From Pseudomonadota bacterium (GTDB lineage: Bacteria > Pseudomonadota > Gammaproteobacteria > Ga0077536), in assembly GCA_036339995.1 (NCBI GenBank), contig JAYYZW010000119.1:691-64690 (forward strand): a stretch of 64,000 bases of DNA, in the 5' to 3' direction. The notes beneath the pieces are model-generated. The model worked only from the letters and a program-made list of their open reading frames with translations, was not told where the DNA came from and made no database searches. Below, one piece after another: positions 6,369 through 54,622 of the stretch. A program made the translations under genes and the position numbers. Within the stretch, counting starts at the first letter, position 1. Every line of letters starts with the position of its first letter.

Positions 6369-7664
<1,296 letters not shown>

Positions 7665-9899: not shown

Positions 9900-12800
9900 T
9901 CAACTACCGGAAACCCAGCGCCTTGCGTTGTTGAACAAAGCCATCCACGGACTTTCCTCATCGCCCCATGACGGTGGACACCACGAATACTGCTTGCTCA
10001 AGAACCCCCGTTCCGGATGCGGCATCATGATGGTGATCCTGCCGTCGTCGGTGGTGAGGCCAGTGACCCCGCGCGGCGATCCATTGGGATTAAAGGGATA
10101 GGTCTCGGTGCATTGTCCGCGGTTATCGACGAAGCGCAAACACACGCCGCGTTCGTCGTCCGGCGCGCCGGGGGGCCATAGTGCGCGGCCTTCGCCATGG
10201 GCGACGATAATGGGCGCGGACAGGCCTTCCAGGCCCGCGGTCAAAATCGAGTTCGATCGGATCACTTCGGCCATGACGAGGCGCGCTTCGAACTGTTCGG
10301 AGGTGTTGCGCTCGAATGACGGCCAGTGCGTGGCGCCTGGAATGAGGTCTCGAAGCTCGCTCAGCATCTGGCAGCCGTTGCAAACCCCAAGCGTAAACGT
10401 ATCCGGCCGAGTGAAAAAAGCTTCAAACACGTCGCGCGCGCGCCTATTCAGGCGGATGGTTCCAGCCCACCCGCGTCCCGCTCCCAGAACGTCACCGTAG
10501 GAGAATCCACCGCAGACCGCGAGACCGACGATACCGTTCAGTGATTCCCTGCCGTCGATGATATCGGTCATGTGTACGTCGACTGCATCGAAGCCGGCGC
10601 GGTCGAAGGCCGCGGCCATTTCAATGTGTCCGTTCACGCCCTGCTCACGCAGCACAGCGACCCGTGGGCGCGCGCCCGTTGTGGCGGCAACGGAAACGCA
10701 GTGATCACTGAAGTTTGTTCGCGGAAGCCTGATCGCAAGCCCTGGATCATCGCGATCGAGAATGACGGCGAGTTCCTGATCGGCACACTCGGGGTTATCG
10801 CGCAGGCGCTGTATCGCATGCGTCGTCGACGAATAAATGGCCAGCAACGCGTTCATATCCGCCTCGATTACCCGTTTCCCTCGGTGACCTAGCTTGAGCA
10901 TTCCATTGTCAACAGGCCGTCCGATCACGTGAACGCAGTCGCCAAGGCCAGTCGACTCCGCGAAAAAGGATTCGACGCGGTCGCGATCGGCGGCCGGAAT
11001 TTGGATGACCGCGCCGAGTTCTTCGGCGAACAAGGCGGTCAGCGGATCATTGCCGAGCGCAGTCAGATCGATATCCAGTCCATGCCTGGCGGCGAACGCC
11101 ATTTCGGCGAGCGTAACGGCAAGTCCACCGTCCGATCGATCGTGATAGGCCAGCAGATGACCGCCATCGTTCAGCGCCTGCACAGCCCGGAATAAATCTG
11201 CAAGGTCGCGAGCCTCCTCGCAGTCGGGAGGATCGCCGCCCGGCATGCCGTAACATTGCGCCAAGATCGATCCGCCCACTCGATTGCGTCCGCGGCCCAG
11301 GTCAACGAGCAGCAACACGGTGTCTTCATCGCGCGAGAGTTCGGGGGTCATGCTCTGGCGCACGTCTGTGACCGGCGCGAACGCGGACACGATCAGCGAA
11401 ACGGGCGCCACCGTTTGCCACGTTTCGCCGTCGACATCCCAAGCTGAGCGCATAGACATTGAATCTTTGCCAACCGGAATGTTGATACCCAGTGCGGGAC
11501 AGAACTCCAGGCCGATCGCGCGTACCATGTCATAAAGTCGGGCGTCCTCTCCCGGATGTCCCGCCGGGCACATCCAGTTAGCCGAAAGCACGACATCGGC
11601 CAGCTGTTTGATCCGCGCCGCCGCGATATTGGTGAGGGCCTCACCCACGGCGAGGCGGGCGGACGCGGGTCCGTCGATCAAGGCCACAGGCGTGCGTTCG
11701 CCCAGCGCCATAGCCTCACCGACATGGTTCGAAAAACCACTCGATGTCACCGCGCAATCGGCCACCGGTACCTGCCATGGCCCGACCATTTGGTCCCGAA
11801 CGGCGAGTCCGCCGACCGTACGATCGCCGATCGTGATAAGGAAACGTTTGTCGCCGACGCCGGGAAAGGAGAATACGCGCTCCAGCGCTTCTTGGAGATC
11901 GACCCGCGAGAGGTCTGGCGAAGCCAGGTCCGTCTTAACGTGTTCCACGTCACGCTGCATGCGCGGGGGTTTGCCGAATATGACATCCATCGGTATATCG
12001 ATGGCCGGCGTTCCCGTGAGGCTGTCACTTACGACGATCTGTTCGCGTTCGGTCGCCGTACCGACGACCGCATAAGGACAGCGTTCGCGTTTACAGATTT
12101 CGGCGATCTGTTCAACGCTGTCGGCGCTGACGGCGAGGACGTAACGCTCCTGGGCCTCGTTACACCAGATCTCGTGCGGCGACATGCCTGGCTCCGCGTT
12201 GGGAATGTCGCGCAATTCAATGATGCCGCCACGATCGCTGTCGTGCAGTATTTCCGGAATCGCGTTGGATAAACCGCCCGCGCCGACGTCGTGTATCGTT
12301 AGCAGGGGGTTGGCGTCGCCGGCGGCCCAGCACGTATCGATCACCTGCTGGCAGCGGCGCTGCATCTCGGCGTTATCCCGTTGTACCGACGCGAAGTCGA
12401 GGTCCGCATCAATGGCACCCGAGCCGAGCGATGATGCGGCGCCGCCCCCCAGGCCGATGAGCATCGCGGGCCCGCCGAGTACAAGGATCCGGGCACCGAC
12501 GGGAATCGCCTGCTTGACGACATGTCCGGGCCGGATGTTGCCTAGGCCCCCGGCCAGCATGATGGGTTTGTCATAACCGCGTACTGTACGTGTGGTATCA
12601 CCACGCGACTCGAAGCTGCGGAAATAACCGGTCAACGCCGGCCGACCGAATTCATTATTGAAAGAAGCAGCGCCGATGGGCCCTTCGAGCATGACATCGA
12701 GCGCTGTCGCAAGTCGGGGATTGAACGGCCGTTCGGTTTCCCAGGGTCGTGCGGCGCCGGGCAGGCGCAGGTGCGACACTGTGAAACCGGTCAAGCCCGC

Positions 12801-13784
12801 CTTTGGCTTCGCACCCCGTCCGGTCGCGCCCTCGTCGCGGATTTCGCCGCCGGCGCCGGTCGACGCGCCCGGATAGGGAGATATCGCCGTCGGGTGATTA
12901 TGCGTTTCGACCTTCATCACGATCGACACGTCTTCGGGATGATGCGCATAAATGAGGTTCGCACCGTTCACACAAAACCGCTCTGCGCGATAGCCCCGAC
13001 TGACCGCGGCGTTGTCTCGATAGGCGGACAAGACGTCGTTGGGATGGCGGGCAAAGGTGTTTCGAATCATGTCGAACAGGCTGAGCGGTTCCTCACGTCC
13101 GTCTACCAACCATGATGCGTTGAAGATCTTATGGCGGCAGTGCTCAGAATTGGCCTGCGCGAACATCATCAGTTCGACGTCCGTCGGATCACGTTCGAGT
13201 TCGCGATACCGACCGTCGAGATAATCGATCTCTTCGTCCGCCAGCGCGAGGCCGAGCTCCGTATTGGCGGCTATGAGTGCATCGCGTCCTTTTGCCAGCA
13301 GCGGGACACGGACTAGCTGACCAGGCCGTGCCGCCGAATTGAGCAGATCGAGCTCGGCGCACGATCGCATGACGGTTTCCGTCATGCGATCGTGGAGAAA
13401 CGGCAGCAAGCCTTCGATGCCCTTCCGGTCGAGGCCGGTGACGAACCAGGCGGTCACACGCTCGATACGCTCGAGTCCAATCACCCCGCAATTCACGCAG
13501 ATGTCGGCCGCCTTGCTAGACCAGGGAGATATCGTGCCGATGCGCGGCGTAACCAGAATGTCGGGCTCTGTGGCTGGATTGTCGCCGGCGTCGTCGCGCG
13601 CGCGGGTAAGCCGTTTCAGCAGGTCCCGCTCGGCATTCGTCGCACCGTCGGCGTTGTGGAACCAGGCGGCGAACAAATGCTCCGCGTCGATCGTCTCCAA
13701 GGCCGGCGCTACGTTTACGCAATCGGCCTTGAGTTTTTCGATTCGAAAGGGCGAAAGGGCGGAACCGCCCCGGAGTAACAACAT
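9900..13784 (-). CDS. purL: phosphoribosylformylglycinamidine synthase (single-chain large PurL)
   Basis: 1294 aa. N-terminus [18 protein letters not shown] parallels E. coli PurL. C-terminal glutamine amidotransferase domain present. Confidence 0.95.
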
Positions 13785-13797
13785 TTGATTTCTAACC

Positions 13798-13970
13798 CTT
13801 AGGGAATCTCTGAATAAGTCATGGTGCGTCTGAATTGTTCATAAAATTGTGCAGATCAAGGCACGAATCGCAGCCAATAGCGGGGACTATTGGCAAGGTT
13901 CGTAACGCTGAGCTGCGCGATTTTATGGGCAAGGCAGATGTGCCATGACTTATTCAAAGGTTCCTTAGGG
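13798..13970. repeat. MITE/REP-like palindromic mosaic element, copy 1 (about 173 bp)
   Basis: TIRs CTTAGGGAATCTCTGAATAAGTCATGG ... CCATGACTTATTCAAAGGTTCCTTAGGG. About 90% identical to the reverse complement of the copy at 31678..31847. Central hairpin CCAATAGcggggaCTATTGG. Confidence 0.8.
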
Positions 13971-14825
13971 TATGACTTCCACCTTCACCCAGACGTCGTA
14001 GACGTCGCTACCCTGGCGCCGCGTGCTGTAAAGCGTACCGCTCGTCGAATCGTTGAATGCCTGGGCGGCACCGCCGAATGGTATCCATTCGCCCAGCCGA
14101 CCGCTGACGGTCGTTGACAGGCCGCGTGAGTCGATCAAACCGCCGCCAGAGCGATTGAGGTTCTCGGTAAACGGCGAGATCTCAAGGTTGATCCGGTCGC
14201 CCGCAACACGCGGTAGGACGTAGAAACCTGCACCGGCATTACGATACCTGACGGACCCGAACACAGTAGCGCCATACGGCGTCCACACCACCGAGTGCTG
14301 CGGTATTGGGACGGATTTCCCCGCACTGATGAAAGCTGGCGACCCTTCAATGGCATGCACGAAATGCGTATTGTCGGCATCGTGCACGCCCTGCGTGCTG
14401 AAATTGCGATATTGAACGTGGTTATCTCTATCGCCATAGGTGATGCTCGCGCCCGGCCCACGCGCCGGCCGACCGACCCGGGCTTGAACATCGCCGCCAG
14501 TGATGCGGGCCGACAGTTCGTTTTCGCGAAGTTGCGAGTGCGCATCGATGTCCTGACGCACGGTGATGCGCAGTTGTTTCAGTTTCGCATCGAGCGCCGC
14601 GAGGACGTTCTTGAGATCGGCCAGGTTTTCGGGCGTCGTGCGGATGATCAGCTGGTCGTTCATTCCGGTCACAGTACCGCCTTCGACAACCAATGCCTGG
14701 AGAGTCGGTACAACGTCGTTCACAAGACGATGCTTGAGCGGAATGATCTCCAAGGTCATTTCGGCACTATGCACCGATGGGGCGATCGAGATAAGGGCGA
14801 TTGTTAAGATCAGGATACGGCTCAT
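13965..14825 (-). CDS. secreted hypothetical protein with secretin-N (NolW-like) short domain
   Basis: Start at internal ATG 14825 (MSRILILTIALISIAPSVHSA signal peptide) with a GGAGG RBS. N-terminal domain LEIIPLKHRLVNDVVPTLQALV...LIIRTTPENLADLKNVLAALD resembles the secretin N-terminal domain. No full secretin C-terminal domain. Stop codon TAA lies inside the repeat TIR. Confidence 0.55.
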   Translation of the reverse strand: MSRILILTIALISIAPSVHSAEMTLEIIPLKHRLVNDVVPTLQALVVEGGTVTGMNDQLIIRTTPENLADLKNVLAALDAKLKQLRITVRQDIDAHSQLRENELSARITGGDVQARVGRPARGPGASITYGDRDNHVQYRNFSTQGVHDADNTHFVHAIEGSPAFISAGKSVPIPQHSVVWTPYGATVFGSVRYRNAGAGFYVLPRVAGDRINLEISPFTENLNRSGGGLIDSRGLSTTVSGRLGEWIPFGGAAQAFNDSTSGTLYSTRRQGSDVYDVWVKVEVIP

Positions 14826-15355
14826 ATGTGCAGCCTCCGGAAATTCGTGTCGGGCACGCCACGTTCCCACATTTCCTCGATCCGGTCGACAAGCCCTGCG
14901 GCGATCCGCCTGTCGTTGAAATCCGCCGTCCCTTCGAAGCGAGCGGAAAACTGGCGATGTACGTATCCTGTGTTATCGGCAACGAGGATCGCTTCATTAA
15001 ATTGTTTGTGCTGAGGCGCTGGCGCGCGAATTTCAATGTAACTCGGCAGACGCGAACTCAGTTCCAGCACCCGGTGACCGGTAGAAATGAGCGGTCTGGA
15101 TTCAATGATGAACAGCCTTATCTGCGCAGTTCGGTTCTTCAAGGCCATATTCTTGAGGGCGTCGGCGAAGGCCTCATTATCGTAGATGGCAGGGTCTAGA
15201 TGGCGGCTGACGATGATCAGCGACTGTCTGCATTGCTGGGCCATCATCACACTGATCACGGCGAGCGATGTGTGATCGTCGAACGTCAGCGGCTCGGCCG
15301 TCCCTCCTAGGACGGCGCCTTCATAGCCGACGGCTTCATCGCGGACCTCAGACAT
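14822..15355 (-). CDS. hypothetical cytoplasmic protein
   Basis: 177 aa ORF. 8-nt overlap with the purB 3' end and ATGA overlap with the downstream secretin-N gene. No TM helix. No family recognised. Confidence 0.5.
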   Translation of the reverse strand: MSEVRDEAVGYEGAVLGGTAEPLTFDDHTSLAVISVMMAQQCRQSLIIVSRHLDPAIYDNEAFADALKNMALKNRTAQIRLFIIESRPLISTGHRVLELSSRLPSYIEIRAPAPQHKQFNEAILVADNTGYVHRQFSARFEGTADFNDRRIAAGLVDRIEEMWERGVPDTNFRRLHI

Positions 15356-16745
15356 CTTTGGCCAGCGCCGCTGCGTTGCCGGTGTAATTCGCGGGAGTCA
15401 ACGCCTTGAGCGCCCGTTTGGCGTCCGTCGTTATATCCAGCCGGTCAATGAATTTTCCTAGGCTTTCACGGTCGATCCGTTGCCCACGGGTCAGTTTTTT
15501 CAACTGCTCGTAGGAATCGCTGATCCCATGGCGGCGCATGATCGTTTGAATCGGCTCGGCCAGTACTTCCCATGCATGATCGAGGTCGTGTGCGAGGCGA
15601 TCTTTGTCGATCTCGAGTTTACCCAGACCCATGAGCAGCGATCGGTAGGCGATCACGGAGTAAGCAAGGGCACTGCCCAGATTTCGCAGCACGGTCGAAT
15701 CAGTGAGGTCGCGCTGCATTCTCGAAAGCGGTAGCTTCCGTGCAAAGTGATCGAGCAGCGCATTGGCGACGCCGAGATTACCCTCGGCGTTTTCGAAGTC
15801 GATCGGATTCACTTTATGCGGCATGGTCGAAGATCCGACTTCGTCATCGACATGGTGCTGCCTGAAATAGCCGATCGAAATATAGCTCCAGATATCGCGG
15901 CACAGGTCCATAAAAATCGTGTTCGTGCGCGCGAGAGCATCGGCGAATTCGGCGATACAGTCATGCGGTTCGATTTGGGTCGTATGTGAATTCCAGCTGA
16001 GTCCGAGGCTCAGCACGAAACGCTCGCTCAAGCGCGGCCAGTCGACATTCGGATAAGCCGCAAGGTGGGCGTTGTAGTTGCCGACGGCGCCGTTCATTTT
16101 CCCGAGCAGGGCAACTTGTTCCAGAGCATCTATCTGGCGGCGGAGGCGGACGGCGAAATTCGCCATTTCTTTGCCCATCGTCGTGGGCGACGCGGGCTGG
16201 CCGTGGGTACGCGACAGCATCGCGTCGCCGGCATGCGCAGCGCCGAGGGACGCAAGCCTGCACAGCAGTTCGTTCATGGCCGGGAGCAATACGTCGGTGC
16301 GTGCATCGCTCAGCATCATGCCGTAAGCGAGGTTGTTGATGTCCTCGCTGGTACAGGCGAAATGAATGAACGGTATGGCGGCATCGAGGGTCCGATGTTC
16401 CGCGAAACATTCGCGCAGGTAATATTCGACCGCCTTGACGTCATGGTTGGTGGTCGCTTCGATCTGCTTGATCTTTGCAGCTTCGGCCTCATCGAACGAA
16501 TGCAATAGGCCTTCGAGAATACCGCTTTTCGAGTCGTCGAATGCCGGTAGCTCCGTAATCGAGTTTTCAGCGCCCAAGGCCTGCAGCCAGCGGACTTCGA
16601 CGACGACACGATAGCGCATGAGGCCAAATTCGCTGCATATGCGGCGCAGCGGGGCCGTGTGCCTGGCGTACCGGCCGTCCACCGGCGAAACGGCGTTGAG
16701 TTCTGACAGCGGCGTTGCGTCGCCGGCGGGGGGTGTCATGGACAC
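15348..16745 (-). CDS. purB: adenylosuccinate lyase
   Basis: 465 aa with AVSPVDGRYARH... matching the PurB N-terminus. Alternative start at ATG 16739 gives an ATGA overlap with the upstream aldo-keto reductase stop. Confidence 0.9.
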   Translation of the reverse strand: MSMTPPAGDATPLSELNAVSPVDGRYARHTAPLRRICSEFGLMRYRVVVEVRWLQALGAENSITELPAFDDSKSGILEGLLHSFDEAEAAKIKQIEATTNHDVKAVEYYLRECFAEHRTLDAAIPFIHFACTSEDINNLAYGMMLSDARTDVLLPAMNELLCRLASLGAAHAGDAMLSRTHGQPASPTTMGKEMANFAVRLRRQIDALEQVALLGKMNGAVGNYNAHLAAYPNVDWPRLSERFVLSLGLSWNSHTTQIEPHDCIAEFADALARTNTIFMDLCRDIWSYISIGYFRQHHVDDEVGSSTMPHKVNPIDFENAEGNLGVANALLDHFARKLPLSRMQRDLTDSTVLRNLGSALAYSVIAYRSLLMGLGKLEIDKDRLAHDLDHAWEVLAEPIQTIMRRHGISDSYEQLKKLTRGQRIDRESLGKFIDRLDITTDAKRALKALTPANYTGNAAALAKDV

Positions 16746-17776
16746 GGGTTGGAAATCTCCTCATGCACAGCATCGATCGCTTTCAGCAGTTCGCGCGGCA
16801 GCTCCGATCCGCTCGCCTTCAAGTTGTGGTCCAACTGCGCAGTTGAACTTGCGCCTATGATAACGCTGGTTACAAAGGGTTTCGACGCGACGAACGCGAG
16901 TGCCATGTGAACCGGGTCGATCGCGGCGGCAGATGCGATCTCGACGTAACGCCGCGTGGCCTGACGAGCGGCCGTATTCAAATAGCGATCGTGGCGTCCA
17001 AACAAGGTCATGCGTGCGTCCGCCGGGGTCCGACCTTCGAGGTATTTTCCGCTCAGGGTACCGAATCCAAGGGGCGAATAGGCGAGCAGGCTCAGGTGTT
17101 CACGGTGCGCGATTTCGGCCCCGCCGACTTCAAAGCTGCGATTCAGGAGGTTGTAGGGGTTCTGGATCGAAGCGATACGCGGTAAGCCCTGTTGGCCCGC
17201 GATACGCAGAAACTCCATCATCCCCCAGGGCGTCTCGTTCGACAGACCTACGCAGCGAATCTTACCGCTGCGAACGATGTCGTTTAGCGCATGCAGGGTC
17301 TCCTCGATGCTGAACGCCTGTTCGTTTCGAGCCGGCTTGAATCCGAGTTGGCCGAAAAAATTCGCGGCGCGATCGGGCCAGTGCAGTTGAAAGAGGTCAA
17401 TATAGTCCGTTTTAAGCCGCACGAGGCTCGCGTCCACCGCGCGTGCGAGGTTTTCGGCCTTGTGGACAGAACACCCGCCCCGTATCCAGGGCACGAAAGT
17501 GCCGGGGCCTGCCGCCTTCGTTGCGAGCACGATGCGATCCCGGCTGCCCCGTTGCGCTATCCAATCACCTACGATAGATTCCGATTCGCCGTAGGTCGCC
17601 GCTCGCGCCGGAACCGGATACATCTCGGCGGTATCGATCAAGTTGACACCGGTATCGCGGGCCCGATCCAATTGGGCATGCGCCTCCGCTGCGTTATTCT
17701 GTCCGCCGAAGGTCATCGTTCCCAGGCAGAACGCACTCACTTCCAGGTCAGTATTTCCGAGCTTGCGATATTCCAT
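16736..17776 (-). CDS. aldo-keto reductase, Tas-like
   Basis: 346 aa. MEYRKLGNTDLEVSAFCLGTMTFGGQN... closely parallels E. coli Tas. Confidence 0.85.
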   Translation of the reverse strand: MEYRKLGNTDLEVSAFCLGTMTFGGQNNAAEAHAQLDRARDTGVNLIDTAEMYPVPARAATYGESESIVGDWIAQRGSRDRIVLATKAAGPGTFVPWIRGGCSVHKAENLARAVDASLVRLKTDYIDLFQLHWPDRAANFFGQLGFKPARNEQAFSIEETLHALNDIVRSGKIRCVGLSNETPWGMMEFLRIAGQQGLPRIASIQNPYNLLNRSFEVGGAEIAHREHLSLLAYSPLGFGTLSGKYLEGRTPADARMTLFGRHDRYLNTAARQATRRYVEIASAAAIDPVHMALAFVASKPFVTSVIIGASSTAQLDHNLKASGSELPRELLKAIDAVHEEISNPCP

Positions 17777-17903
17777 AAACAGAGATTCGTGATGATTCGA
17801 TCTAAATTGACTTCGAGGCCGGCCGATAGGCCCCCGAAATCGAATACTAAGCCGCCCCGACCCGTTCGCGCCGGTTCAGCGGTACGACTTCGGAGTCGGC
17901 TTG

Positions 17904-18527
17904 ATGCCTGAATGCTCCGTTGCCCAGCGATTCCGCGGATTTCTCCCCGTTATCATCGACGTGGAAACGGGAGGTTTCAATTCGCAAACCGACGCGCTGC
18001 TGGAAATCGCCGCGGTATTGATCGACATCGATGAGGCGCGGGGGTGGCACAGGCGCACCACGATTGGTTGCCACGTCACGCCCTTCGAAGGCGCTAATCT
18101 CGACAAAAGTTCGCTCGAATTCAACAAGATCGACCCGTATCACCCTTTTCGGCTCGCGATCGACGAAGGCGAGGCTCTCGAGAAGATCTTCGAAACCATC
18201 CGGGCCGAAATTACGCGCCAAGAATGCAGCCGGGCGATCCTTGTCGGTCACAACCCGACCTTCGACCTCACTTTCGTCAAGGCCGCAGCGTCGCGTAGCG
18301 GCATCAAAAAGCTCCCCTTTCACAATTTCAGCACCTTCGATACGGCGGCCCTGGCGGGTGTGGCGTTCGGCCAGACCGTACTCGCGCGCGCCGTGCTGGC
18401 CGCGGGTCTCGACTGGGACGCTGACGAGGCGCATTCCGCCATTTACGACGCTGAACGTACGGCCGATCTCTTCTGTGAAATCGTCAATCGCTGGGACCGG
18501 TACTTGGATGCCGCCGAAGTTCCTTAG
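17904..18527 (+). CDS. rnt: ribonuclease T
   Basis: DEDDh exonuclease. FRGFLPVIIDVETGGFN and HSAIYDAERTADLFCEIVNRW match RNase T. ATG at 17904 preferred over TTG at 17901. Confidence 0.9.
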   Translation: MPECSVAQRFRGFLPVIIDVETGGFNSQTDALLEIAAVLIDIDEARGWHRRTTIGCHVTPFEGANLDKSSLEFNKIDPYHPFRLAIDEGEALEKIFETIRAEITRQECSRAILVGHNPTFDLTFVKAAASRSGIKKLPFHNFSTFDTAALAGVAFGQTVLARAVLAAGLDWDADEAHSAIYDAERTADLFCEIVNRWDRYLDAAEVP

Positions 18528-24829: not shown

Positions 24830-25783
24830 GTGCGTGTACGCCGAACCAGTCAGGTGATCGACACACTGGTCATCATCGGGGTGGGCCTCATCGGCGGTTC
24901 CCTGGCGCGGGCCTTGCGGCGGTCCGGCGTGGTCGGCGAGATCGTCGGCGTCGGACGCAGCGCGGCGAACCTCGAGGCGGCAGTCGATCTAGGCGTGGTC
25001 GATCGGTTTGAGTTCGATGCCGCCAAAGCGGTTAGAGGCGCGGACATGGTGGTGGTCGCCGTAACGCTTGGTGCCTCGGCTGAAATTCTCGAAACTATCG
25101 GCCCGGCCCTCGACGAAAACACCTTCGTGACCGATGTCGGGTCGACCAAGTTGAGCGTCGTGGTGTCGGCGCGAGCGGCGCTCGGCGCACGGTTTCCAAA
25201 CTTCGTCCCAGGCCATCCGATCGCCGGCACCGAACTGAGTGGCGTGAAAGCCTCCTTTGCCGAACTCTTTGAAGATCACAAGGTGATTTTGACGCCGCTG
25301 CCGGAAACGCGCGAGGAGGCCCTGCATGCCGTGGCCTCTCTGTGGCGCGCAACAGGCGCCTCGGTGGTCGAGATGGACGCCGCTCATCACGACCAGGTGC
25401 TCGCGGCCACGTCGCATTTGCCGCATCTGCTCGCCTATACGCTGGTCGATATGCTGGCCGCGGCGGAGGATTCCGGCGAGATATTCAAATTCGCGGCGGG
25501 CGGGTTTCGCGATTTCACGCGCATCGCTTCGAGTAATCCCGAGATGTGGCGCGATATCATCCTGGCCAACCGCGAGGCGGTGTTGCCATTATGCGAGGTA
25601 TATGCGGATCGGTTCGGGGCGCTCAGGCGGGCGATCGAAGCGGGAGACGGTGCCGCCCTCGAGGCAATCTTCGAGCGGGCCAAGGATGTCCGCGACCGAT
25701 CATTTATTTCCCCGCACCCGTCCAACTGGCCGGTTGGACGGGTGCGGTACGGGCGCTCAGGCGGTGGAGACGGCGATCAATAA
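24830..25783 (+). CDS. tyrA: prephenate/arogenate dehydrogenase
   Basis: 317 aa, GTG start. Rossmann motif IIGVGLIGGS and prephenate-dehydrogenase core. The C-terminal tail is low-complexity and its frame relation to aroA is ambiguous. Confidence 0.8.
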   Translation: MRVRRTSQVIDTLVIIGVGLIGGSLARALRRSGVVGEIVGVGRSAANLEAAVDLGVVDRFEFDAAKAVRGADMVVVAVTLGASAEILETIGPALDENTFVTDVGSTKLSVVVSARAALGARFPNFVPGHPIAGTELSGVKASFAELFEDHKVILTPLPETREEALHAVASLWRATGASVVEMDAAHHDQVLAATSHLPHLLAYTLVDMLAAAEDSGEIFKFAAGGFRDFTRIASSNPEMWRDIILANREAVLPLCEVYADRFGALRRAIEAGDGAALEAIFERAKDVRDRSFISPHPSNWPVGRVRYGRSGGGDGDQ

Positions 25784-31677: not shown

Positions 31678-31847
31678 TTTAGGGAGCCCCTAAATAAGTC
31701 ATGGTACATCTGCCTTGCCCGTGAAATCGCGGAGCCTTACGTTACGAACCTTGCCAATAGTCCCCGCTATTGGCAAGGTTCGTGCCTTGATCTGCGCGAT
31801 TTCGTGAACAATTCAGACGCACGATGACTTATTCAGAGGTTCCTTAG
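31678..31847. repeat. MITE/REP-like palindromic mosaic element, copy 2 (about 170 bp)
   Basis: TIR pair ...TAAATAAGTCATGG / CGATGACTTATTCAGAGGTTCCTTAG. Perfect 17-bp central hairpin ACGAACCTTGCCAATAG-tccccg-CTATTGGCAAGGTTCGT. Right end 7 bp from the pyrF ATG. Confidence 0.8.
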
Positions 31848-39109: not shown

Positions 39110-39793
39110 TTACGAAACCATCGCGACCGGGCCGTCGATGGCGGCCTCGCGATTCAAGGTGCGGGTCAATTGGATTTCAAATCGCTTCTTGTAGTTCAAC
39201 AGGTCTAAGGGTCTCAGTGACTGGGCGCCAATTTGTTGTATGAAGCGGGTCGAAAGGTCAAGGTCGGTGATGTAGATGCGGTAACAATTACCATTGCGGC
39301 GCCGCGCTTGAACGTATTCCGCAACCTCGAAGAACAGCGAACCACCATGCTCCCAGGTCGAAAATCCCCTGTTATTGCAATAAATGGTGAACTGCTGATG
39401 ACCACTCGAATCGGCGTCCGCAAGAACCTGCAGAGAGAGGTGGACCGAAGTCGCGGCCAGATCATCAAAGTAGGGTTTCAATTGAACATTGCGATTATTG
39501 GGTATGATTTCAACCGTATCGATCGCTATTTTATCAATGGAATCCCCATCTCCAGGCGACCCGGAGCAAGGTGGGAGGGCTGATTCCAGAAACCGACGGT
39601 AGTGCTGTAAAAGTGCAGTGATCGAATAGCATTCCTGCAACTGAACCAGGAGGACGCCGCGTTCATCCAGCACGTAAACGTCGGCCCGCCGTGGCCGGTC
39701 TCTGTTGTTTGCCAGGAAGCGCTTCTCAGTGATTGGGACAGCAGCGGTTCGGGATTTTTTCGCATTCATCCTCATGCCGCCTAATAGCGGCAC
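39110..39793 (-). CDS. hypothetical protein
   Basis: 227 aa ORF upstream of, and on the same strand as, the DUF815 ATPase. No signal peptide. No confident family assignment. Confidence 0.45.
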   Translation of the reverse strand: MPLLGGMRMNAKKSRTAAVPITEKRFLANNRDRPRRADVYVLDERGVLLVQLQECYSITALLQHYRRFLESALPPCSGSPGDGDSIDKIAIDTVEIIPNNRNVQLKPYFDDLAATSVHLSLQVLADADSSGHQQFTIYCNNRGFSTWEHGGSLFFEVAEYVQARRRNGNCYRIYITDLDLSTRFIQQIGAQSLRPLDLLNYKKRFEIQLTRTLNREAAIDGPVAMVS

Positions 39794-44963: not shown

Positions 44964-45437
44964 ATGCCAGATGCAACCATTATCGAAGGTCAACTCGTGC
45001 TCAAGGCCGAAGCGAACATTGCGATCATCTGCGCACGCTTCAATAGTTTTATCGTCGAGCAGCTCGAATCCGGGTGTATCGACGCGCTGCGTCGCCATGG
45101 TGTTGCCGGCGAACACCTTACCGTGGTGCGGACCCCTGGCGCTTTCGAAATACCATTGGTCGCGCAAAAGCTCGCTGGATCGGGCAAATATGACGCCGTG
45201 ATTGCGCTCGGTTGCGTCATTCGCGGATCCACTGCTCATTTCGAACATATCAGCGGTGTCTGTTCACGCGGACTTGCGGCGGCGGCCCGCGATACCGGCG
45301 TTCCGGTCGTGTTCGGCGTGCTGACGACGAATAACATTGAACAGGCGATTGAACGGGCGGGTACGAAAGCGGGAAACAAAGGCGCGGATGCTGCGGTGGC
45401 GGCCATCGAAATGATCTCGTTGATGCGGCAACTGTAG
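44964..45437 (+). CDS. ribH: 6,7-dimethyl-8-ribityllumazine synthase
   Basis: 157 aa. [18 protein letters not shown]. Confidence 0.9.
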
Positions 45438-45439
45438 CA

Positions 45440-45883
45440 ATGGCCGCTCGGGGAGGACATCGCGCACGGATCCGCGCCCGCAGATGCGCCGTGCAGGCCC
45501 TGTATCAATGGCAGATCGCTGGCCACGAACCTTGCGATATCCTCACCGAATTCGTGGCCGAGCGCGAACTCATCAGGGTGGACATGGATTATTTCGCAAT
45601 ACTCGTATCGGAAATTCCCACCCAGTTCGATACGCTGCAGGCCGATCTTCAGTCTTGTCTGGATCGTGATTGGAAACAACTCGATCCTGTAGAACGCAGC
45701 GTTCTGCTGATCGGCGCATACGAGATGCGAAACTGTCCCGAGGTTCCTTATCGCGTGGTCATCAACGAAGGCGTCGAGCTGTGCAAGATGTTCGGCACGG
45801 TTGAGGGACATCGATATGTCAACGGTGTACTCGACAAGTTGGCGAAGGACCGACGAACACCGGAAATCGCCTCAACAGAATAA
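45440..45883 (+). CDS. nusB: transcription antitermination factor NusB
   Basis: 147 aa. ARRCAVQALYQW motif. Confidence 0.9.
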   Translation: MAARGGHRARIRARRCAVQALYQWQIAGHEPCDILTEFVAERELIRVDMDYFAILVSEIPTQFDTLQADLQSCLDRDWKQLDPVERSVLLIGAYEMRNCPEVPYRVVINEGVELCKMFGTVEGHRYVNGVLDKLAKDRRTPEIASTE

Positions 45884-48307: not shown

Positions 48308-49117
48308 ATGAGACGCATGTTCGACTTGATCACGACAGTGCTGATGATCGGCGCGATCACCGTGGTGTTTCCGGCTATCGCCGAGCAATCGGACGTGGAC
48401 GCCTGGGCGACCCTGTTGAAACCCCATTATTTCGGTGATGCCGAACTCGTGGAAGGGCATTCCATCATCGAGATGAAAACGCCTTACCGCGCGGAGGATG
48501 CTGCGTTTACGCCGGTTTCCATCACGGCGAACATTCCGCAGACCGAAGAACGTTACATCGAGAAAATCTACCTGTTCGTCGAGAAGAATCCCCAGCCTTT
48601 GGCCGGTATTTTTCACTTGACCGCAGCGATGGGGCGCGCCGATCTCGCCATGCGGGTGCGCGTCGATATGTACACTAACGTCCGCGTGGTGGCGGTGCTG
48701 AATACCGGCGAGCATCATCTCGTAACGAATTTCGTCAAGGCCCAGGGCGGCTGCTCGGCGCCGCTGGCCTCGGATTTCGCAGCAGCCATGGAGAAAATCG
48801 GCTCGATGCGCTTTCGCACGGTCGGCGACCGCACTGCCGAGGATCTCCTCCTCGGCCAGTTCATGCTGAGCCATCCGAACGTCACCGGCATGCAGGAAGA
48901 CCAGAAAACCCACCTCTTCCGCCCCGCTCATTACGTGAAAACCATCAAACTCTATCAGGGTGACAAGCTCCTCATGGTTGCTGAAACCGGGTTCTCCGTG
49001 AGCGAAGATCCCACGTTCCGTTTCTTCTTCCGTCCCGATGGTGCCGCTGAACTGCGTGCGGAAGTAGAAGATTCCAAGGGCCTTTCCTGGGCAGAGACGT
49101 TCAAGATCAAAACCTGA
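48308..49117 (+). CDS. SoxY-SoxZ-like sulfur carrier fusion protein (quinoprotein-dehydrogenase-associated SoxYZ-like family type)
   Basis: Signal peptide. SoxY-like domain ending in a ...KAQGGCSAPL cysteine motif (corresponding to the SoxY GGCGG). SoxZ-like C-terminal beta domain (...FRFFF). AAGGAG RBS. Confidence 0.55.
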   Translation: MRRMFDLITTVLMIGAITVVFPAIAEQSDVDAWATLLKPHYFGDAELVEGHSIIEMKTPYRAEDAAFTPVSITANIPQTEERYIEKIYLFVEKNPQPLAGIFHLTAAMGRADLAMRVRVDMYTNVRVVAVLNTGEHHLVTNFVKAQGGCSAPLASDFAAAMEKIGSMRFRTVGDRTAEDLLLGQFMLSHPNVTGMQEDQKTHLFRPAHYVKTIKLYQGDKLLMVAETGFSVSEDPTFRFFFRPDGAAELRAEVEDSKGLSWAETFKIKT

Positions 49118-53224: not shown

Positions 53225-53392
53225 CTTAGGGAACCTCTGAATAAGTTACGGCACATCTGCCTTGCCCGTGAAATTGCGGAGCCTTACGTTACGAACCTTG
53301 CCAATAGTCCTCGCTATTGCCTGCGGTTCGTGCCTCGATCTGCACTGTTCATGAACAATTCAGACGCACCATGACTTATTCAGAGGTTCCTC
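53225..53392. repeat. MITE/REP-like palindromic mosaic element, copy 3 (about 168 bp)
   Basis: Same orientation as copy 2. TIRs CTTAGGGAACCTCTGAATAAGTTACGG / CCATGACTTATTCAGAGGTTCCTCA. Degenerate central hairpin. Begins 1 nt after the TPP-enzyme TGA. Its right terminus contains the TGA stop of the lipoprotein gene. Confidence 0.8.
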
Positions 53393-54110
53393 AGATTCCA
53401 GATTCCTGAGCGGCGATCCCTATTGCGTTCGTCAACAAGACCGACAAGGAATCGAATATCGTCGTGCGATGCGATTCTCTAATTGCCTGCACGCCAGAGC
53501 CGGTTTCGTATCGAGGCCGCCACACCGACTCCGTGAGCGGAGCGACCTGCCGTCCGCCCGCTCTGCCGACAACGAATTGCCTTTTCACGTCAATGGCTTC
53601 GATTGCGATGGCGGCATAGGCGAATACGCCCGTATCGAAGGCTTTCTGGAAGCCGTAACCGCGAATGTTCTGGTTGGTATGGGTGACGTAGTCTTGCGCG
53701 ATGTCCGGATAGACTACCACCACCATATCGAGGCCTTTTGCGGCGCCCGCCTGGTAAACGCGTTCGTGAATCTCACCGGTATCGCGGTAACCCCATTTGG
53801 ATTCGGCAATACCAAACGAGCTGTCGTCCCGGCGGATCCGAATCACCTCGAACCCTTTCCTGCGCAACCGGGCGCCGACTTTTTCATAGACGAGGGCGTC
53901 AGCGTCCCAGCCTTCCAGCACGGTGCTGGAGAACTTGCTTTCCATGGCTGATATCGACAGGTAACTTATGTAGGGTTGCCGGTTGACCAGCGACAGCACG
54001 CCGACCTTGGTGATCCTCGCCGCATGCTCCGCGGTCATGCGTGATTGGCTGGTATTCAGCAGGCAGCCCGTCAGCGCGGCGCAGCACAGATAGATCAAAT
54101 TTTTGATCAC
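53391..54110 (-). CDS. hypothetical lipoprotein
   Basis: GTG start at 54110 gives MIKNLIYLCCAALTGCLLN (lipobox LTGC). About 239 aa. The longer TTG-initiated ORF was rejected. Confidence 0.5.
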   Translation of the reverse strand: MIKNLIYLCCAALTGCLLNTSQSRMTAEHAARITKVGVLSLVNRQPYISYLSISAMESKFSSTVLEGWDADALVYEKVGARLRRKGFEVIRIRRDDSSFGIAESKWGYRDTGEIHERVYQAGAAKGLDMVVVVYPDIAQDYVTHTNQNIRGYGFQKAFDTGVFAYAAIAIEAIDVKRQFVVGRAGGRQVAPLTESVWRPRYETGSGVQAIRESHRTTIFDSLSVLLTNAIGIAAQESGI

Positions 54111-54127
54111 GTTCGATGCCGAAATCG

Positions 54128-54622
54128 TCAAGCCTCGTCCGCATCCCGCGTCCAGCGAAAATCGCAGTGATCCGCACCTTCCATCATTGTCTGCGTGCGT
54201 TCGAGTTTGAGATCGGAGCCTATGCCGGCAGTCATGGGCGGGTCGATGCCGCAAACCATGAGCCGCCCGAACTCCCGATCACCGAGTTTGCGAAATAGCT
54301 CCGCATACCGACAGCGCCGTACATTGAACGCCATCACGGTATCGGACTCCTCCACCGGCTCGATCTCGATGGCGTCGCCCGCGGTAAACATCGGTACGGC
54401 CTTACGCAGCTTTTCGAGGGAATTCGAGCCCTCGTTGCGGCCGATCGAGCGACCGAATTCCGTGGCGAATTCATTGACTGCTACGGAGAGCAGTTCGCGC
54501 GCCCGGTCCGGGCCGATTTCGTCTTTAAGGCGCCGGTATAAGGGCAGCAGTATTTCAGCCTGAATTTTCACTCGCTCGATGTAGGGCAGCGGATCTGAAA
54601 TCGTGTCAGCTTTCTGGTTCAT
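54128..54622 (-). CDS. L-2-amino-thiazoline-4-carboxylic acid hydrolase-like family protein
   Basis: 164 aa. Cys-containing motifs (CRYAELF, GADHCDFRW) recalled from the ATC-hydrolase family. Family assignment tentative. Confidence 0.45.
   Translation of the reverse strand: MNQKADTISDPLPYIERVKIQAEILLPLYRRLKDEIGPDRARELLSVAVNEFATEFGRSIGRNEGSNSLEKLRKAVPMFTAGDAIEIEPVEESDTVMAFNVRRCRYAELFRKLGDREFGRLMVCGIDPPMTAGIGSDLKLERTQTMMEGADHCDFRWTRDADEA

What the first reader, a model, noticed from the sequence alone, without database searches (positions are those of the whole stretch)
13965..15355. Translationally coupled pair downstream of purB: cytoplasmic unknown protein plus periplasmic secretin-N-domain protein
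purB, the 177-aa ORF and the 286-aa ORF overlap by 8 and 4 nt (ATGA), which implies one transcript. The last protein has a signal peptide and a clear secretin N-terminal (NolW-like) short domain. It lacks the C-terminal secretin pore domain, and nearby there are no pilus or T2SS genes. A free-standing secretin-N module paired with a cytoplasmic partner is not a described system. It could be a periplasmic adaptor or pilotin-like factor.
Basis: partly seen in the sequence, partly recalled or inferred. Interest (0 to 1): 0.55.

Follow-up and report, generated by a model that had tools for sequence, protein, structure and literature searches.

The report
Orphan mini-secretin with PLD-fold partner
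The gene after purB does not encode a bare secretin N-domain but a complete, unusually small outer-membrane secretin channel protein. It belongs to a large, unstudied family found far from any secretion or pilus machine, and in gammaproteobacteria its gene always follows that of a cytoplasmic protein with a phospholipase-D-like fold that lacks the catalytic motif.

Summary
The genes and overlaps are real. purB and the 177-aa ORF overlap by 8 nt, and the 177-aa and 286-aa ORFs overlap by ATGA. The 286-aa protein has a signal peptide and a Secretin_N domain.

Residues 84-285 form a compact but complete secretin barrel:
- Pfam Secretin matches in 50 of 52 family members.
- The family profile matches GspD at E 7e-15.
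- hhalign against M13 pIV gives 96% probability across N3 and the whole secretin domain.
- All 34 best Foldseek PDB matches are secretin pores.

The Gate 1 hinge glycine is invariant. The N0 domain, the S domain and the VPxLxxIP segment are missing. The family has about 1,000 clusters at 50% identity, nearly all of about 285 aa.

The 177-aa protein is DUF7931, a confident PLD-fold model without the HKD motif and without an export signal. The DUF7931/mini-secretin pair recurs in all 24 gammaproteobacterial loci examined, with or without purB. Betaproteobacterial mini-secretins lack DUF7931.

No T2SS or pilus genes lie in 57 kb of the window, and no paper describes the family.

My best reading is an autonomous gated outer-membrane channel of unknown cargo with a ligand-binding cytoplasmic partner. 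I class it as a new variant of a known kind, interest about 0.58.

The parts
13965..14825 (-). Mini-secretin gene (286 aa including the signal peptide)
   Evidence: ORF and ATG start. There are 722 homologues, almost all of 285-290 aa. 1036 cluster representatives score E<=1e-30, and most of the best 150 are about 260-310 aa. All 34 Foldseek PDB matches with E<=0.001 are secretin pores.
14766..14825 (-). Sec signal peptide, residues 1-20 (MSRILILTIALISIAPSVHS, cleavage before AEM)
   Evidence: This is the only hydrophobic stretch (KD19 maximum 1.69 at residue 4) and it has no Cys. An equivalent signal peptide is present in the aligned family.
14586..14756 (-). Single N3-type (Secretin_N, ring-building) domain, residues 24-80
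   Evidence: Pfam PF03958 matches residues 26-80 and 52 of 52 family members. The AF2 model is beta-alpha-beta-beta-alpha with pLDDT 83-90. The region aligns with the pIV N3 domain and with GspD/XcpQ N domains.
13971..14576 (-). Compact secretin barrel domain, residues 84-285. It has a long first outer-barrel strand, a short lip region, Gate 1 (G169 to G198/G200), Gate 2 (about E221-D232) and a C-terminal outer-barrel hairpin.
   Evidence: PF00263 matches residues 156-258. The family profile matches GspD 5zdh at 7e-15. hhalign against M13 pIV gives probability 96% and E 3.7e-9 over residues 25-283. AF2 predicts 12 strands. G161, G169, P173, G200, P205, G245 and G251 are invariant.
14834..14838 (-). 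GGAGG Shine-Dalgarno for the mini-secretin, lying inside the 3' end of the DUF7931 gene
   Evidence: The upstream sequence reads CCGGAGGCTGCACAT-ATG.
14822..15355 (-). DUF7931 gene (177 aa): a protein with no export signal, a PLD-like fold and no HKD motif
   Evidence: PF25559 at 1.1e-38. AF2 gives pLDDT 86.6 and pTM 0.83. Foldseek matches TrmBL2 C-domain, Nuc, NucT, Zucchini and FAM83 at E 4e-7 to 1e-5. The invariant residues are R51 H52 D54 D59 R80 H94 R95 R110 N120 D127 R173 R174. At the HKD position the sequence reads N120-E-A122-x4-D127. There is no signal peptide or TM segment.
15348..16745 (-). purB (adenylosuccinate lyase), the upstream gene, overlapping the DUF7931 gene by 8 nt
   Evidence: ORF. 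Orthologues in related loci carry Lyase_1 plus ASL_C. purB is the upstream neighbour, directly or with roxA-like/GNAT genes in between, in most gammaproteobacterial loci but not in Sedimenticola.
16736..17776 (-). Aldo-keto reductase gene. Its TGA overlaps the purB ATG at 16739 (ATGA), which extends the overlapping chain to four genes.
   Evidence: The orthologues are annotated Aldo_ket_red.
13797..13970 (.). A 174-bp imperfect palindrome that fills the spacer between the mini-secretin stop codon and purL. It is one of three copies of a repeated intergenic element and may act as a terminator or RNA stabiliser.
   Evidence: Inverted repeat with 62-nt arms, 77% complementary. The RNA fold is -77.8 kcal/mol, z -9.6. 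Other copies lie at about 31690-31836 and 53230-53390. The element is also present in the 91%-identical relative L001.

Best explanation
The 286-aa ORF encodes a complete but minimal secretin. It consists of a Sec signal peptide, one N3-type ring-building domain, and a compact secretin domain with outer and inner barrel strands, a short lip and both gate loops. It lacks the N0 domain that docks classical secretins to inner-membrane platforms. It also lacks any further N domains, the S (pilotin-binding) domain and the conserved VPxLxxIP segment.

Shown here: the domain content, the homology and the fold; the size and uniform length of the family; the absence of T2SS, T4P, T3SS or phage genes around it; and the strict adjacency to DUF7931 in gammaproteobacteria.

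Inferred: after Sec export the subunits self-assemble, by analogy with other secretins as a 12-15-mer, into a gated outer-membrane channel with only one short periplasmic ring. This channel would work on its own rather than as the exit port of a known envelope-spanning machine. The cargo or signal that opens it is unknown.

The upstream, translationally coupled DUF7931 protein has no signal peptide or membrane segment. It has a phospholipase-D fold in which the catalytic His and Lys are replaced (N-x-A-x4-D), while a different set of invariant Arg and His residues is kept. It most likely binds an anionic small molecule, or acts as a regulatory or accessory factor, rather than hydrolysing phosphodiesters in the classical way. 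Its link to the channel is genetic (a conserved gene pair), not demonstrated physically.
For: Secretin identity:
- Pfam Secretin_N and Secretin both match the window protein, and match 52 and 50 of 52 family members respectively.
- The family profile hits GspD at 7e-15, XcpQ at 2e-13, PilQ at 1.5e-9 and pIV at 1.3e-7 in the PDB.
- hhalign against M13 pIV gives 96% probability, with residues 25-283 aligned to precursor residues 131-418. By the domain limits in PMC8563730 that is N3 plus the whole secretin domain.
- The Foldseek top 34 are all secretin pores, E 4e-13 to 8e-7, with TMt 0.59 to pIV.
- Family-invariant G169 aligns with the pIV hinge Gly267. The Gate 1 loop has the same length as in pIV.

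Minimal architecture: the mature protein begins 3 residues before N3 and ends with the last barrel strand.

Family: 1036 cluster representatives at E<=1e-30, with most of the best 150 about 260-310 aa long.

Orphan status: only housekeeping genes were found in 0-57 kb of the window and in more than 20 related loci. The family is not phage- or plasmid-borne.

Pair: DUF7931 lies directly upstream in all 24 gammaproteobacterial loci, including Sedimenticola where purB is absent. ATGA or TGATG junctions are conserved.

DUF7931: a confident model, PLD fold, no HKD motif, and no export signal.
Against: - No oligomer, membrane location or conductance has been shown for any family member. The monomer AF2 model is only moderate (pLDDT 70.7; residues 112-122 and 227-235 are below 50).
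- The window protein's own PF00263 score is 0.1 bit under Pfam's cut-off, and the last ~40 profile positions are unmatched.
- Loss of the conserved VPxLxxIP segment could affect barrel closure.
- Autonomy is argued from absence of neighbouring genes. A partner machine could be encoded elsewhere in the genome.
- The functional link to DUF7931 rests on synteny only. Betaproteobacterial members do without it. In this window the overlapping chain also includes purB and an aldo-keto reductase, which are clearly unrelated in function.
Confidence: 0.6

Rival explanations
1. The mini-secretin is the outer-membrane exit pore of a conventional T2SS, type IV pilus, Tad or competence machine encoded elsewhere in the genome. 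Its gene has simply been displaced to the purB region.
For: By sequence it is closest to T2SS GspD-type secretins. Some sources name homologues GspD or HofQ. Secretin genes can lie apart from their systems (general knowledge). The rest of the genome could not be examined.
Against: It has no N0 domain, which is the part that contacts GspC/PilP-type inner-membrane partners. The pIV paper states that all secretins share N0 and N3. The uniform ~285-aa length across about 1000 clusters and the fixed pairing with DUF7931 point to a separate, dedicated role. No machine genes were found in any of more than 20 loci.
Confidence: 0.15
2. The two genes are not a functional unit. DUF7931 belongs with the cytoplasmic housekeeping genes of the purB-roxA-GNAT neighbourhood, and the mini-secretin works independently. 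The adjacency would be inherited synteny within one gammaproteobacterial clade.
For: Betaproteobacterial mini-secretins have no DUF7931 and instead precede a periplasmic binding protein and a hybrid histidine kinase. In Sedimenticola a GNAT gene overlaps the DUF7931 gene by 4 nt. In other loci the order is purB, JmjC/RoxA-like, GNAT, DUF7931. In the window even the aldo-keto reductase and purB are ATGA-coupled. The two proteins would sit in different compartments.
Against: The pair stays adjacent in all 24 gammaproteobacterial loci, down to about 35% identity. It does so while purB, roxA, GNAT, purL and MscS neighbours come and go. Start/stop overlap is preserved in most loci.
Confidence: 0.25
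3. The protein is a secretin-derived ring that no longer conducts anything. It would act, for example, as an envelope scaffold, a stress sensor or an assembly factor for other secretins.
For: The lip region is shortened and the VPxLxxIP segment deleted. The AF2 confidence in the barrel is moderate. There is no obvious energy source or cargo genes nearby.
Against: The gate and hinge residues and the inner-barrel motifs are the most conserved parts of the family (G161, A164, G169, P173, G200, P205, G245, G251). That is hard to explain without a gated pore. Phage pIV has an equally short lip and is a working channel.
Confidence: 0.1
4. One reading: a periplasmic protein made only of a secretin-N domain, acting as an adaptor or pilotin-like factor.
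For: Secretin_N is present, along with a signal peptide. The window protein's PF00263 score is marginally below Pfam's threshold.
Against: Residues 84-285 align with and fold like the complete secretin barrel. There is no lipobox Cys as in pilotins.
Confidence: 0.02

Closest known systems
Filamentous-phage secretin pIV (f1/M13; PDB 7OFH)
   Same: It is the smallest well-studied secretin. It has N3 followed directly by a secretin domain with a compact ~36-residue lip, Gate 1 and Gate 2. It has no S domain and assembles without a pilotin. Among the PDB hits it gives the best target-normalised TM-score (TMt 0.59), and hhalign gives 96% over N3 plus barrel.
   Different: pIV has an N0 domain and linker (residues 1-107) that engage the phage pI/pXI inner-membrane complex, and it is phage-encoded. 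It keeps the VPFLSKIP segment. The mini-secretin has none of these and is chromosomal, lying among housekeeping genes.
T2SS secretins GspD/XcpQ/PulD
   Same: These give the best sequence matches for both the N domain and the barrel. They share the motifs around the gates (AfI-vGq-vP; V-G-x-x-v-P; GE-i-lGG).
   Different: GspD is 600-650 aa with N0-N1-N2-N3, a longer lip or cap, and an S domain for a pilotin. It is encoded in gsp operons. The window protein scores 33 bits against the 351-bit cut-off of TIGR02517. It is therefore not a GspD equivalog.
Single-domain PLD-superfamily proteins: the nucleases Nuc/NucT/Zucchini, and the non-catalytic TrmB/TrmBL2 C-terminal and FAM83 DUF1669 domains
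   Same: DUF7931 has the same alpha/beta fold (Foldseek E 4e-7 to 1e-5, TMq 0.55-0.63) and about the same size as Nuc.
   Different: It has no HxK(x)4D(x)6GSxN motif. The aligned positions read N120-E-A122-x4-D127 and HRQF. No Pfam PLDc match was found in 38 members. It has no signal peptide, whereas Nuc and NucT are exported. In losing the catalytic motif it resembles the ligand- or protein-binding pseudo-PLD domains (TrmB, FAM83) more than the nucleases.
P. aeruginosa PA2633 (UniProt Q9I0K5, 'Secretin_N domain-containing protein')
   Same: It carries the same database label. It was detected in a surface-shaving proteome. It lies four locus tags after PA2629, which I recall as purB. From memory PA2631 is a GNAT, matching the purB-RoxA-GNAT-DUF7931-mini-secretin order seen.
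   Different: No functional study of it was found.

Membership tests
Secretin superfamily (GspD/PilQ/InvG/pIV) | C-terminal secretin domain (Pfam PF00263) forming the double beta-barrel | tested here: met
   PF00263 scores 27.4 bits against a cut-off of 27.5 in the window protein and matches 50 of 52 relatives at E<=1e-3, best 7.9e-12. The family profile matches GspD at 7e-15. hhalign to pIV gives 96%. The Foldseek top 34 are all secretin pores.
Secretin superfamily (GspD/PilQ/InvG/pIV) | N3-type ring-building domain immediately before the barrel | tested here: met
   PF03958 matches residues 26-80 and 52 of 52 relatives. The region aligns with pIV N3. The AF2 model is beta-alpha-beta-beta-alpha with pLDDT 83-90.
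Secretin superfamily (GspD/PilQ/InvG/pIV) | [quoted passage not shown] | tested here: met
   Invariant G169 aligns with pIV Gly267. G198 aligns with Gly297, and the family-invariant G200 lies two residues further on. E221-D232 align with Gate 2.
Secretin superfamily (GspD/PilQ/InvG/pIV) | N-terminal N0 domain that couples to an inner-membrane platform (said to be shared by all secretins in PMC8563730) | tested here: not met
   The signal peptide ends at residue 20 and N3 starts at residue 24, so there is no room for N0. The same holds across the ~285-aa family.
Secretin superfamily (GspD/PilQ/InvG/pIV) | Stable 12-15-mer ring in the outer membrane | not testable with these tools
   Only a monomer model could be made. 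This needs multimer prediction, SDS/heat-resistance gels or cryo-EM.
Secretin superfamily (GspD/PilQ/InvG/pIV) | Encoded with T2SS, T3SS, T4P, Tad or inovirus assembly genes | tested here: not met
   The ORFs scanned across 0-57 kb of the window are all housekeeping. No such genes appear in more than 20 related loci. There was only one viral-contig hit, at a contig edge.
T2SS GspD equivalog (TIGR02517) | Full-length match above NCBIfam's curated cut-off | tested here: not met
   33.1 bits against a cut-off of 351.35.
   The whole protein has no Cys and no lipobox appears in the aligned family. The barrel domain is present.
DUF7931 (PF25559) | Match above Pfam's gathering score | tested here: met
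   132.7 bits against a cut-off of 27, covering profile positions 6-149 of 149. 38 of 38 relatives match.
Phospholipase D (HKD) superfamily | PLD alpha/beta fold | tested here: met
   The AF2 model has pLDDT 86.6. Foldseek matches TrmBL2 at 3.6e-7, Nuc at 7e-7, NucT, Zucchini, PLD3/4 and PssA.
Phospholipase D (HKD) superfamily | Catalytic HxK(x)4D(x)6GSxN motif | tested here: not met
   The family consensus at the aligned position reads F-N-E-A-x-L-x-A-D-N-x-G-Y-x-H-R. The hhalign comparison with Nuc of plasmid R46 is weak (E 0.13). It places Nuc's K on A122 and its D on D127. Nuc's H falls on F119, next to a one-residue gap at invariant N120. Keeping the canonical H-to-D spacing of seven residues puts the His at N120. 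No PLDc Pfam hit was found in 38 members.

The most novel reading that the evidence does not exclude
The ~285-aa mini-secretins are a separate functional class of secretin. They would be free-standing, self-assembling gated outer-membrane channels that work without any T2SS, T3SS, T4P or phage inner-membrane machine. In gammaproteobacteria they would operate together with a cytoplasmic pseudo-PLD ligand-binding protein (DUF7931). The class would be widespread and, if PA2632/PA2633 are orthologues, present in P. aeruginosa.
Probability: 0.35. Interest if true: 0.78.

Novelty: new variant of a known kind. Interest (0 to 1): 0.58.

Why it matters
Secretins are textbook components of four envelope-spanning machines, and they are described as always having an N0 domain that plugs into an inner-membrane partner. 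This family would break that rule in three ways: it is large and conserved, it keeps only N3 plus a gated barrel, and it is never encoded beside such machines. It raises a concrete question: what passes through a secretin gate that has no known motor, and what opens it?

At about 265 mature residues it would also be the smallest natural secretin. That makes it attractive for structural work, for studying pilotin- and N0-independent assembly, and for nanopore engineering. The conserved partner DUF7931 adds an uncharacterised pseudo-PLD domain to the problem. If PA2632/PA2633 are orthologues, the question can be addressed directly in a model pathogen.

Tried and rejected
- P. aeruginosa orthology: this could not be tested.
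- Anti-phage defence: no PADLOC hit for either protein.
- Phage origin: one weak viral-contig hit at a contig edge, and BFVD returned only pIV-type proteins. Rejected.
- Plasmid carriage: only ~26%-identical pIV-like genes on 7-18-kb replicons for the secretin, and nothing for DUF7931. Rejected.
- Sequence search of DUF7931 against the PDB: nothing significant. The best were a chance p47 match and TrmBL2 at E 0.6.
- Rfam on the whole window: no hits.
- Promoter and terminator scan of 13600-18000: nothing above background.
- Literature: no paper on DUF7931. No paper was found on mini, orphan, stand-alone or small secretins of this kind. PA2632 and PA2633 appear only in lists.
- N-terminal extension in betaproteobacterial members (351-372 aa): rejected. 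The extra residues look like mis-called starts upstream of a normal signal peptide.
- A purine-salvage nuclease role for DUF7931, suggested by the NucT similarity and the purB/purL neighbours: judged unlikely, because the HKD residues and an export signal are missing.
Full report
**1. Observation**

Four genes lie head-to-tail on the minus strand. They encode an aldo-keto reductase (16736-17776), purB (15348-16745), a 177-aa ORF (14822-15355) and a 286-aa ORF (13965-14825, taking the ATG at 14825).

- purB and the 177-aa ORF overlap by 8 nt.
- The 177-aa stop and the 286-aa start form ATGA.
- A GGAGG lies 8 nt upstream of that ATG.
- The reductase stop and the purB ATG at 16739 also form ATGA.

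The overlaps are therefore a property of the whole string, not of the last two genes alone. A promoter and terminator scan found nothing above background inside the string.

**2. The 286-aa protein is a whole secretin, not a secretin-N fragment**

Sequence evidence:
- Pfam finds Secretin_N at residues 26-80. It also finds the secretin pore domain PF00263 at residues 156-258, 0.1 bit below the gathering score.
- Among 52 aligned relatives, 52 match Secretin_N and 50 match PF00263 at E<=1e-3, the best at 7.9e-12.
- A family profile searched against PDB sequences hits T2SS GspD at 7e-15, XcpQ at 2e-13, PilQ at 1.5e-9 and phage pIV at 1.3e-7.
- hhalign of the family against M13 pIV gives 96% probability and E 3.7e-9. 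Residues 25-283 align to pIV precursor residues 131-418. With the domain limits published for f1 pIV (N3 108-172, secretin 175-405 in mature numbering; PMC8563730), this spans N3 and the entire barrel.

Structure evidence:
- The AF2 monomer (pLDDT 70.7) shows a beta-alpha-beta-beta-alpha N domain followed by twelve strands.
- All 34 Foldseek PDB matches with E<=0.001 are secretin pores (PilQ, GspD, InvG, pIV, RcpA). E values run from 4e-13 to 8e-7, and TMt to pIV is 0.59.

Residue detail:
- The family-invariant G169 aligns with the pIV Gate 1 hinge Gly267.
- G198 aligns with the second hinge, Gly297, and the family-invariant G200 lies two residues further on.
- The Gate 1 loop has the same length as in pIV.
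- E221-D232 align with Gate 2.

What is missing:
- N0 and every other N domain. The signal peptide ends at residue 20 and N3 starts at residue 24.
- An S domain.
- A 12-residue piece corresponding to the conserved VPxLxxIP segment.
- The lip region is short, as in phage secretins.
- There is no cysteine, so the protein is neither a lipoprotein nor a liposecretin.

**3. The family**

The word-indexed search found 722 homologues. Nearly all of the 120 best are 285-290 aa. The exhaustive profile search found 1036 cluster representatives (50% identity) at E<=1e-30. Most of the best 150 are about 260-310 aa long.

Sources call these proteins hypothetical, 'secretin N-terminal domain-containing', GspD or HofQ. 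NCBIfam has no model for them, and TIGR02517 scores 33 bits against a cut-off of 351.

**4. The 177-aa protein**

- It is DUF7931 (PF25559, 1.1e-38).
- It has no signal peptide and no hydrophobic segment; the KD19 maximum is 1.42, inside the folded core.
- The AF2 model is confident (pLDDT 86.6, pTM 0.83).
- It matches single-domain PLD-superfamily structures: the TrmBL2 and TrmB C-terminal domains, Nuc, NucT, Zucchini, FAM83, F13 and PLD3/4 (E 4e-7 to 1e-4, TMq 0.55-0.63).
- At sequence level no PLDc family is detected in 38 members. The only PDB sequence hint is TrmBL2 at E 0.6.
- At the position of the HxK(x)4D motif the family reads N120-E-A122-x4-D127, followed by HRQF instead of GSxN. 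This comes from the alignment and from a weak hhalign comparison with Nuc of plasmid R46.
- A different set of residues is invariant: R51, H52, D54, D59, R80, H94, R95, R110, R173 and R174.

I read this as a PLD fold that has lost the classical catalytic centre. It keeps a basic Arg/His set that I take, without checking the 3D positions, to form a pocket. That fits a binder of an anionic ligand, or a divergent enzyme.

**5. Conservation of the pair**

- In 15 genome loci, from 91% down to 35% identity, a DUF7931 gene lies immediately upstream of the mini-secretin gene.
- The same holds in nine further loci recovered through individual proteins.
- The junction is ATGA or TGATG in the seven loci where it could be read automatically.
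- purB is the upstream neighbour in most loci, often within the classical mnmA-hflD-purB region.
- In Sedimenticola the upstream gene is instead a GNAT acetyltransferase that overlaps the DUF7931 gene by 4 nt, and an MscS-type channel gene follows the pair.
- Other gammaproteobacteria have the order purB, JmjC/RoxA-like, GNAT, DUF7931, mini-secretin, purL.

The DUF7931/mini-secretin pair is thus the constant unit while its neighbours change.

There is a counterweight. Two betaproteobacterial-type members score about 260 bits against the family profile, and one is labelled Burkholderiales. Both lack DUF7931. Their genes precede those of a periplasmic binding protein and a hybrid histidine kinase. 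Their apparent N-terminal extensions look like mis-called starts.

**6. Surroundings**

Across 0-57 kb the window encodes only housekeeping functions: fhs, pyrG, kdsA, eno, ispD, purL, purB, rnt, gyrA, pheA, aroA, cmk, rpsA, ihfB, lapAB, pyrF, mfd, glyA, nrdR, the rib genes, thiL, SoxYZ and others. There are no T2SS, T3SS, pilus, Tad or phage assembly genes.

The family is not phage- or plasmid-borne. Neither protein matches a known defence system.

**7. Mechanism**

Shown here: a Sec-exported protein with one ring-building domain and a complete gated secretin barrel. It is encoded apart from any known partner machine and genetically paired with a PLD-fold protein that has no export signal.

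Inferred: the subunits multimerise into an outer-membrane channel like other secretins. Without N0 the channel cannot dock in the known way to GspC/PilP-type partners. Without an S domain or lipid anchor it assembles without a classical pilotin, as pIV does. It would then be an autonomous gated conduit whose cargo and opening signal are unknown.

Two observations hint at passage of a soluble molecule rather than a fibre. One is the betaproteobacterial association with a binding-protein-dependent sensor kinase. The other is the MscS neighbour in Sedimenticola-type genomes. Both are weak. The role of DUF7931 as ligand sensor, regulator or biogenesis helper is inferred from fold and synteny only.

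Confidence:
- About 0.9 that the protein is a true secretin with a barrel.
- About 0.4 that it acts autonomously.
- About 0.5 that DUF7931 is functionally tied to it.

**8. Comparison with what is known**

- The closest structural analogue is phage pIV: small, with a compact lip, no S domain and no pilotin.
- The closest by sequence are T2SS GspD proteins.
- The mini-secretin is a member of the secretin superfamily by domain and fold. It fails two features regarded as general for secretins, namely the N0 domain and linkage to an envelope-spanning system. It is not a GspD equivalog.
- DUF7931 is a PLD-fold protein but fails the HKD test. In that respect it resembles the non-catalytic TrmB and FAM83 domains.

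Literature searches found no description of DUF7931 or of secretins of this kind.

One lead was not verified by sequence. P. aeruginosa PA2633 (Q9I0K5) is labelled 'Secretin_N domain-containing protein' and was detected in a surface-shaving proteome. It lies four locus tags after PA2629, which I recall as purB.

**9. Verdict**

The finding is more interesting in its corrected form. It is a widespread, uncharacterised, minimal orphan secretin with a conserved pseudo-PLD partner. I class it as a new variant of a known kind, interest about 0.58.

Noticed in passing
window 13797-13970, about 31690-31836, about 53230-53390; L001 about 7002-7016 and 10962-11109: A ~170-bp imperfect palindromic intergenic element occurs three times in the window. 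The arms are 62 nt and 77% complementary, and the three copies show 84% mean column identity. The seed CTGAATAAGTCATGG gives 6 hits against 0.04 expected. The copy after the mini-secretin gene overlaps its stop codon and folds as RNA at -77.8 kcal/mol (z -9.6). It has no Rfam family. The seed also occurs in the 91%-identical relative, including once in the same spacer. It looks like a REP/MITE-type repeat and may act as a terminator.
   Followed up: partly
window 16736-16745: The aldo-keto reductase stop codon and the purB ATG at 16739 overlap as ATGA. The AKR, purB, DUF7931 and mini-secretin genes therefore form a chain of four overlapping genes. The listed GTG start of purB at 16745 is probably 2 codons too early.
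   Followed up: partly
L027 1769-7026; L028; a JGI contig without DNA: Betaproteobacterial-type mini-secretins (one labelled Burkholderiales) have no DUF7931. Their genes are followed by those of a Peripla_BP_4 binding protein and a PAS-HisKA-HATPase-REC hybrid kinase, a LuxPQ/TorTS-like arrangement. This is a second conserved context for the family.
   Followed up: partly
L013 4949-7714; L021 7001-9232; L029 3901-6894; L030 4192-6864: Recurrent extra neighbours of the pair. A GNAT acetyltransferase gene lies directly upstream and overlaps the DUF7931 gene by 4 nt in Sedimenticola. A JmjC/RoxA-like oxygenase gene lies between purB and GNAT. An MscS-type channel gene lies directly downstream in Sedimenticola-type genomes.
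   Followed up: partly
P. aeruginosa PA2632/PA2633 and sRNA PA2633.1 (literature only): PA2633 is listed as 'Secretin_N domain-containing protein' (Q9I0K5) in a surface-shaving proteome. The biofilm sRNA SrbA (PA2633.1) was also noted; its name places it just after PA2633. A PA2632 mutation appeared once in a ciprofloxacin-heteroresistance study. These are possible orthologues of the pair, but this was not verified by sequence.
   Followed up: no
window 48308-49117: A fused SoxY-SoxZ sulfur-oxidation carrier protein. Its relatives carry the pair in Sedimenticola, Thiogranum and DsrE/TusA-bearing contigs. Together these suggest that the window comes from a sulfur-oxidising gammaproteobacterium.
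   Followed up: no
window 24850-25230, 39110-39793, 45236-45811, 53391-54254: Four ORFs of 126-287 aa have coding-like GC3 but no Pfam match at E<=1e-4.
   Followed up: no
P0193: One DUF7931 homologue (175 aa, 62% identical to the Sedimenticola protein) carries a precomputed PLDc_2 (PF13091) hit alongside PF25559. This is the only sequence-level link from the family to the PLD superfamily.
   Followed up: no
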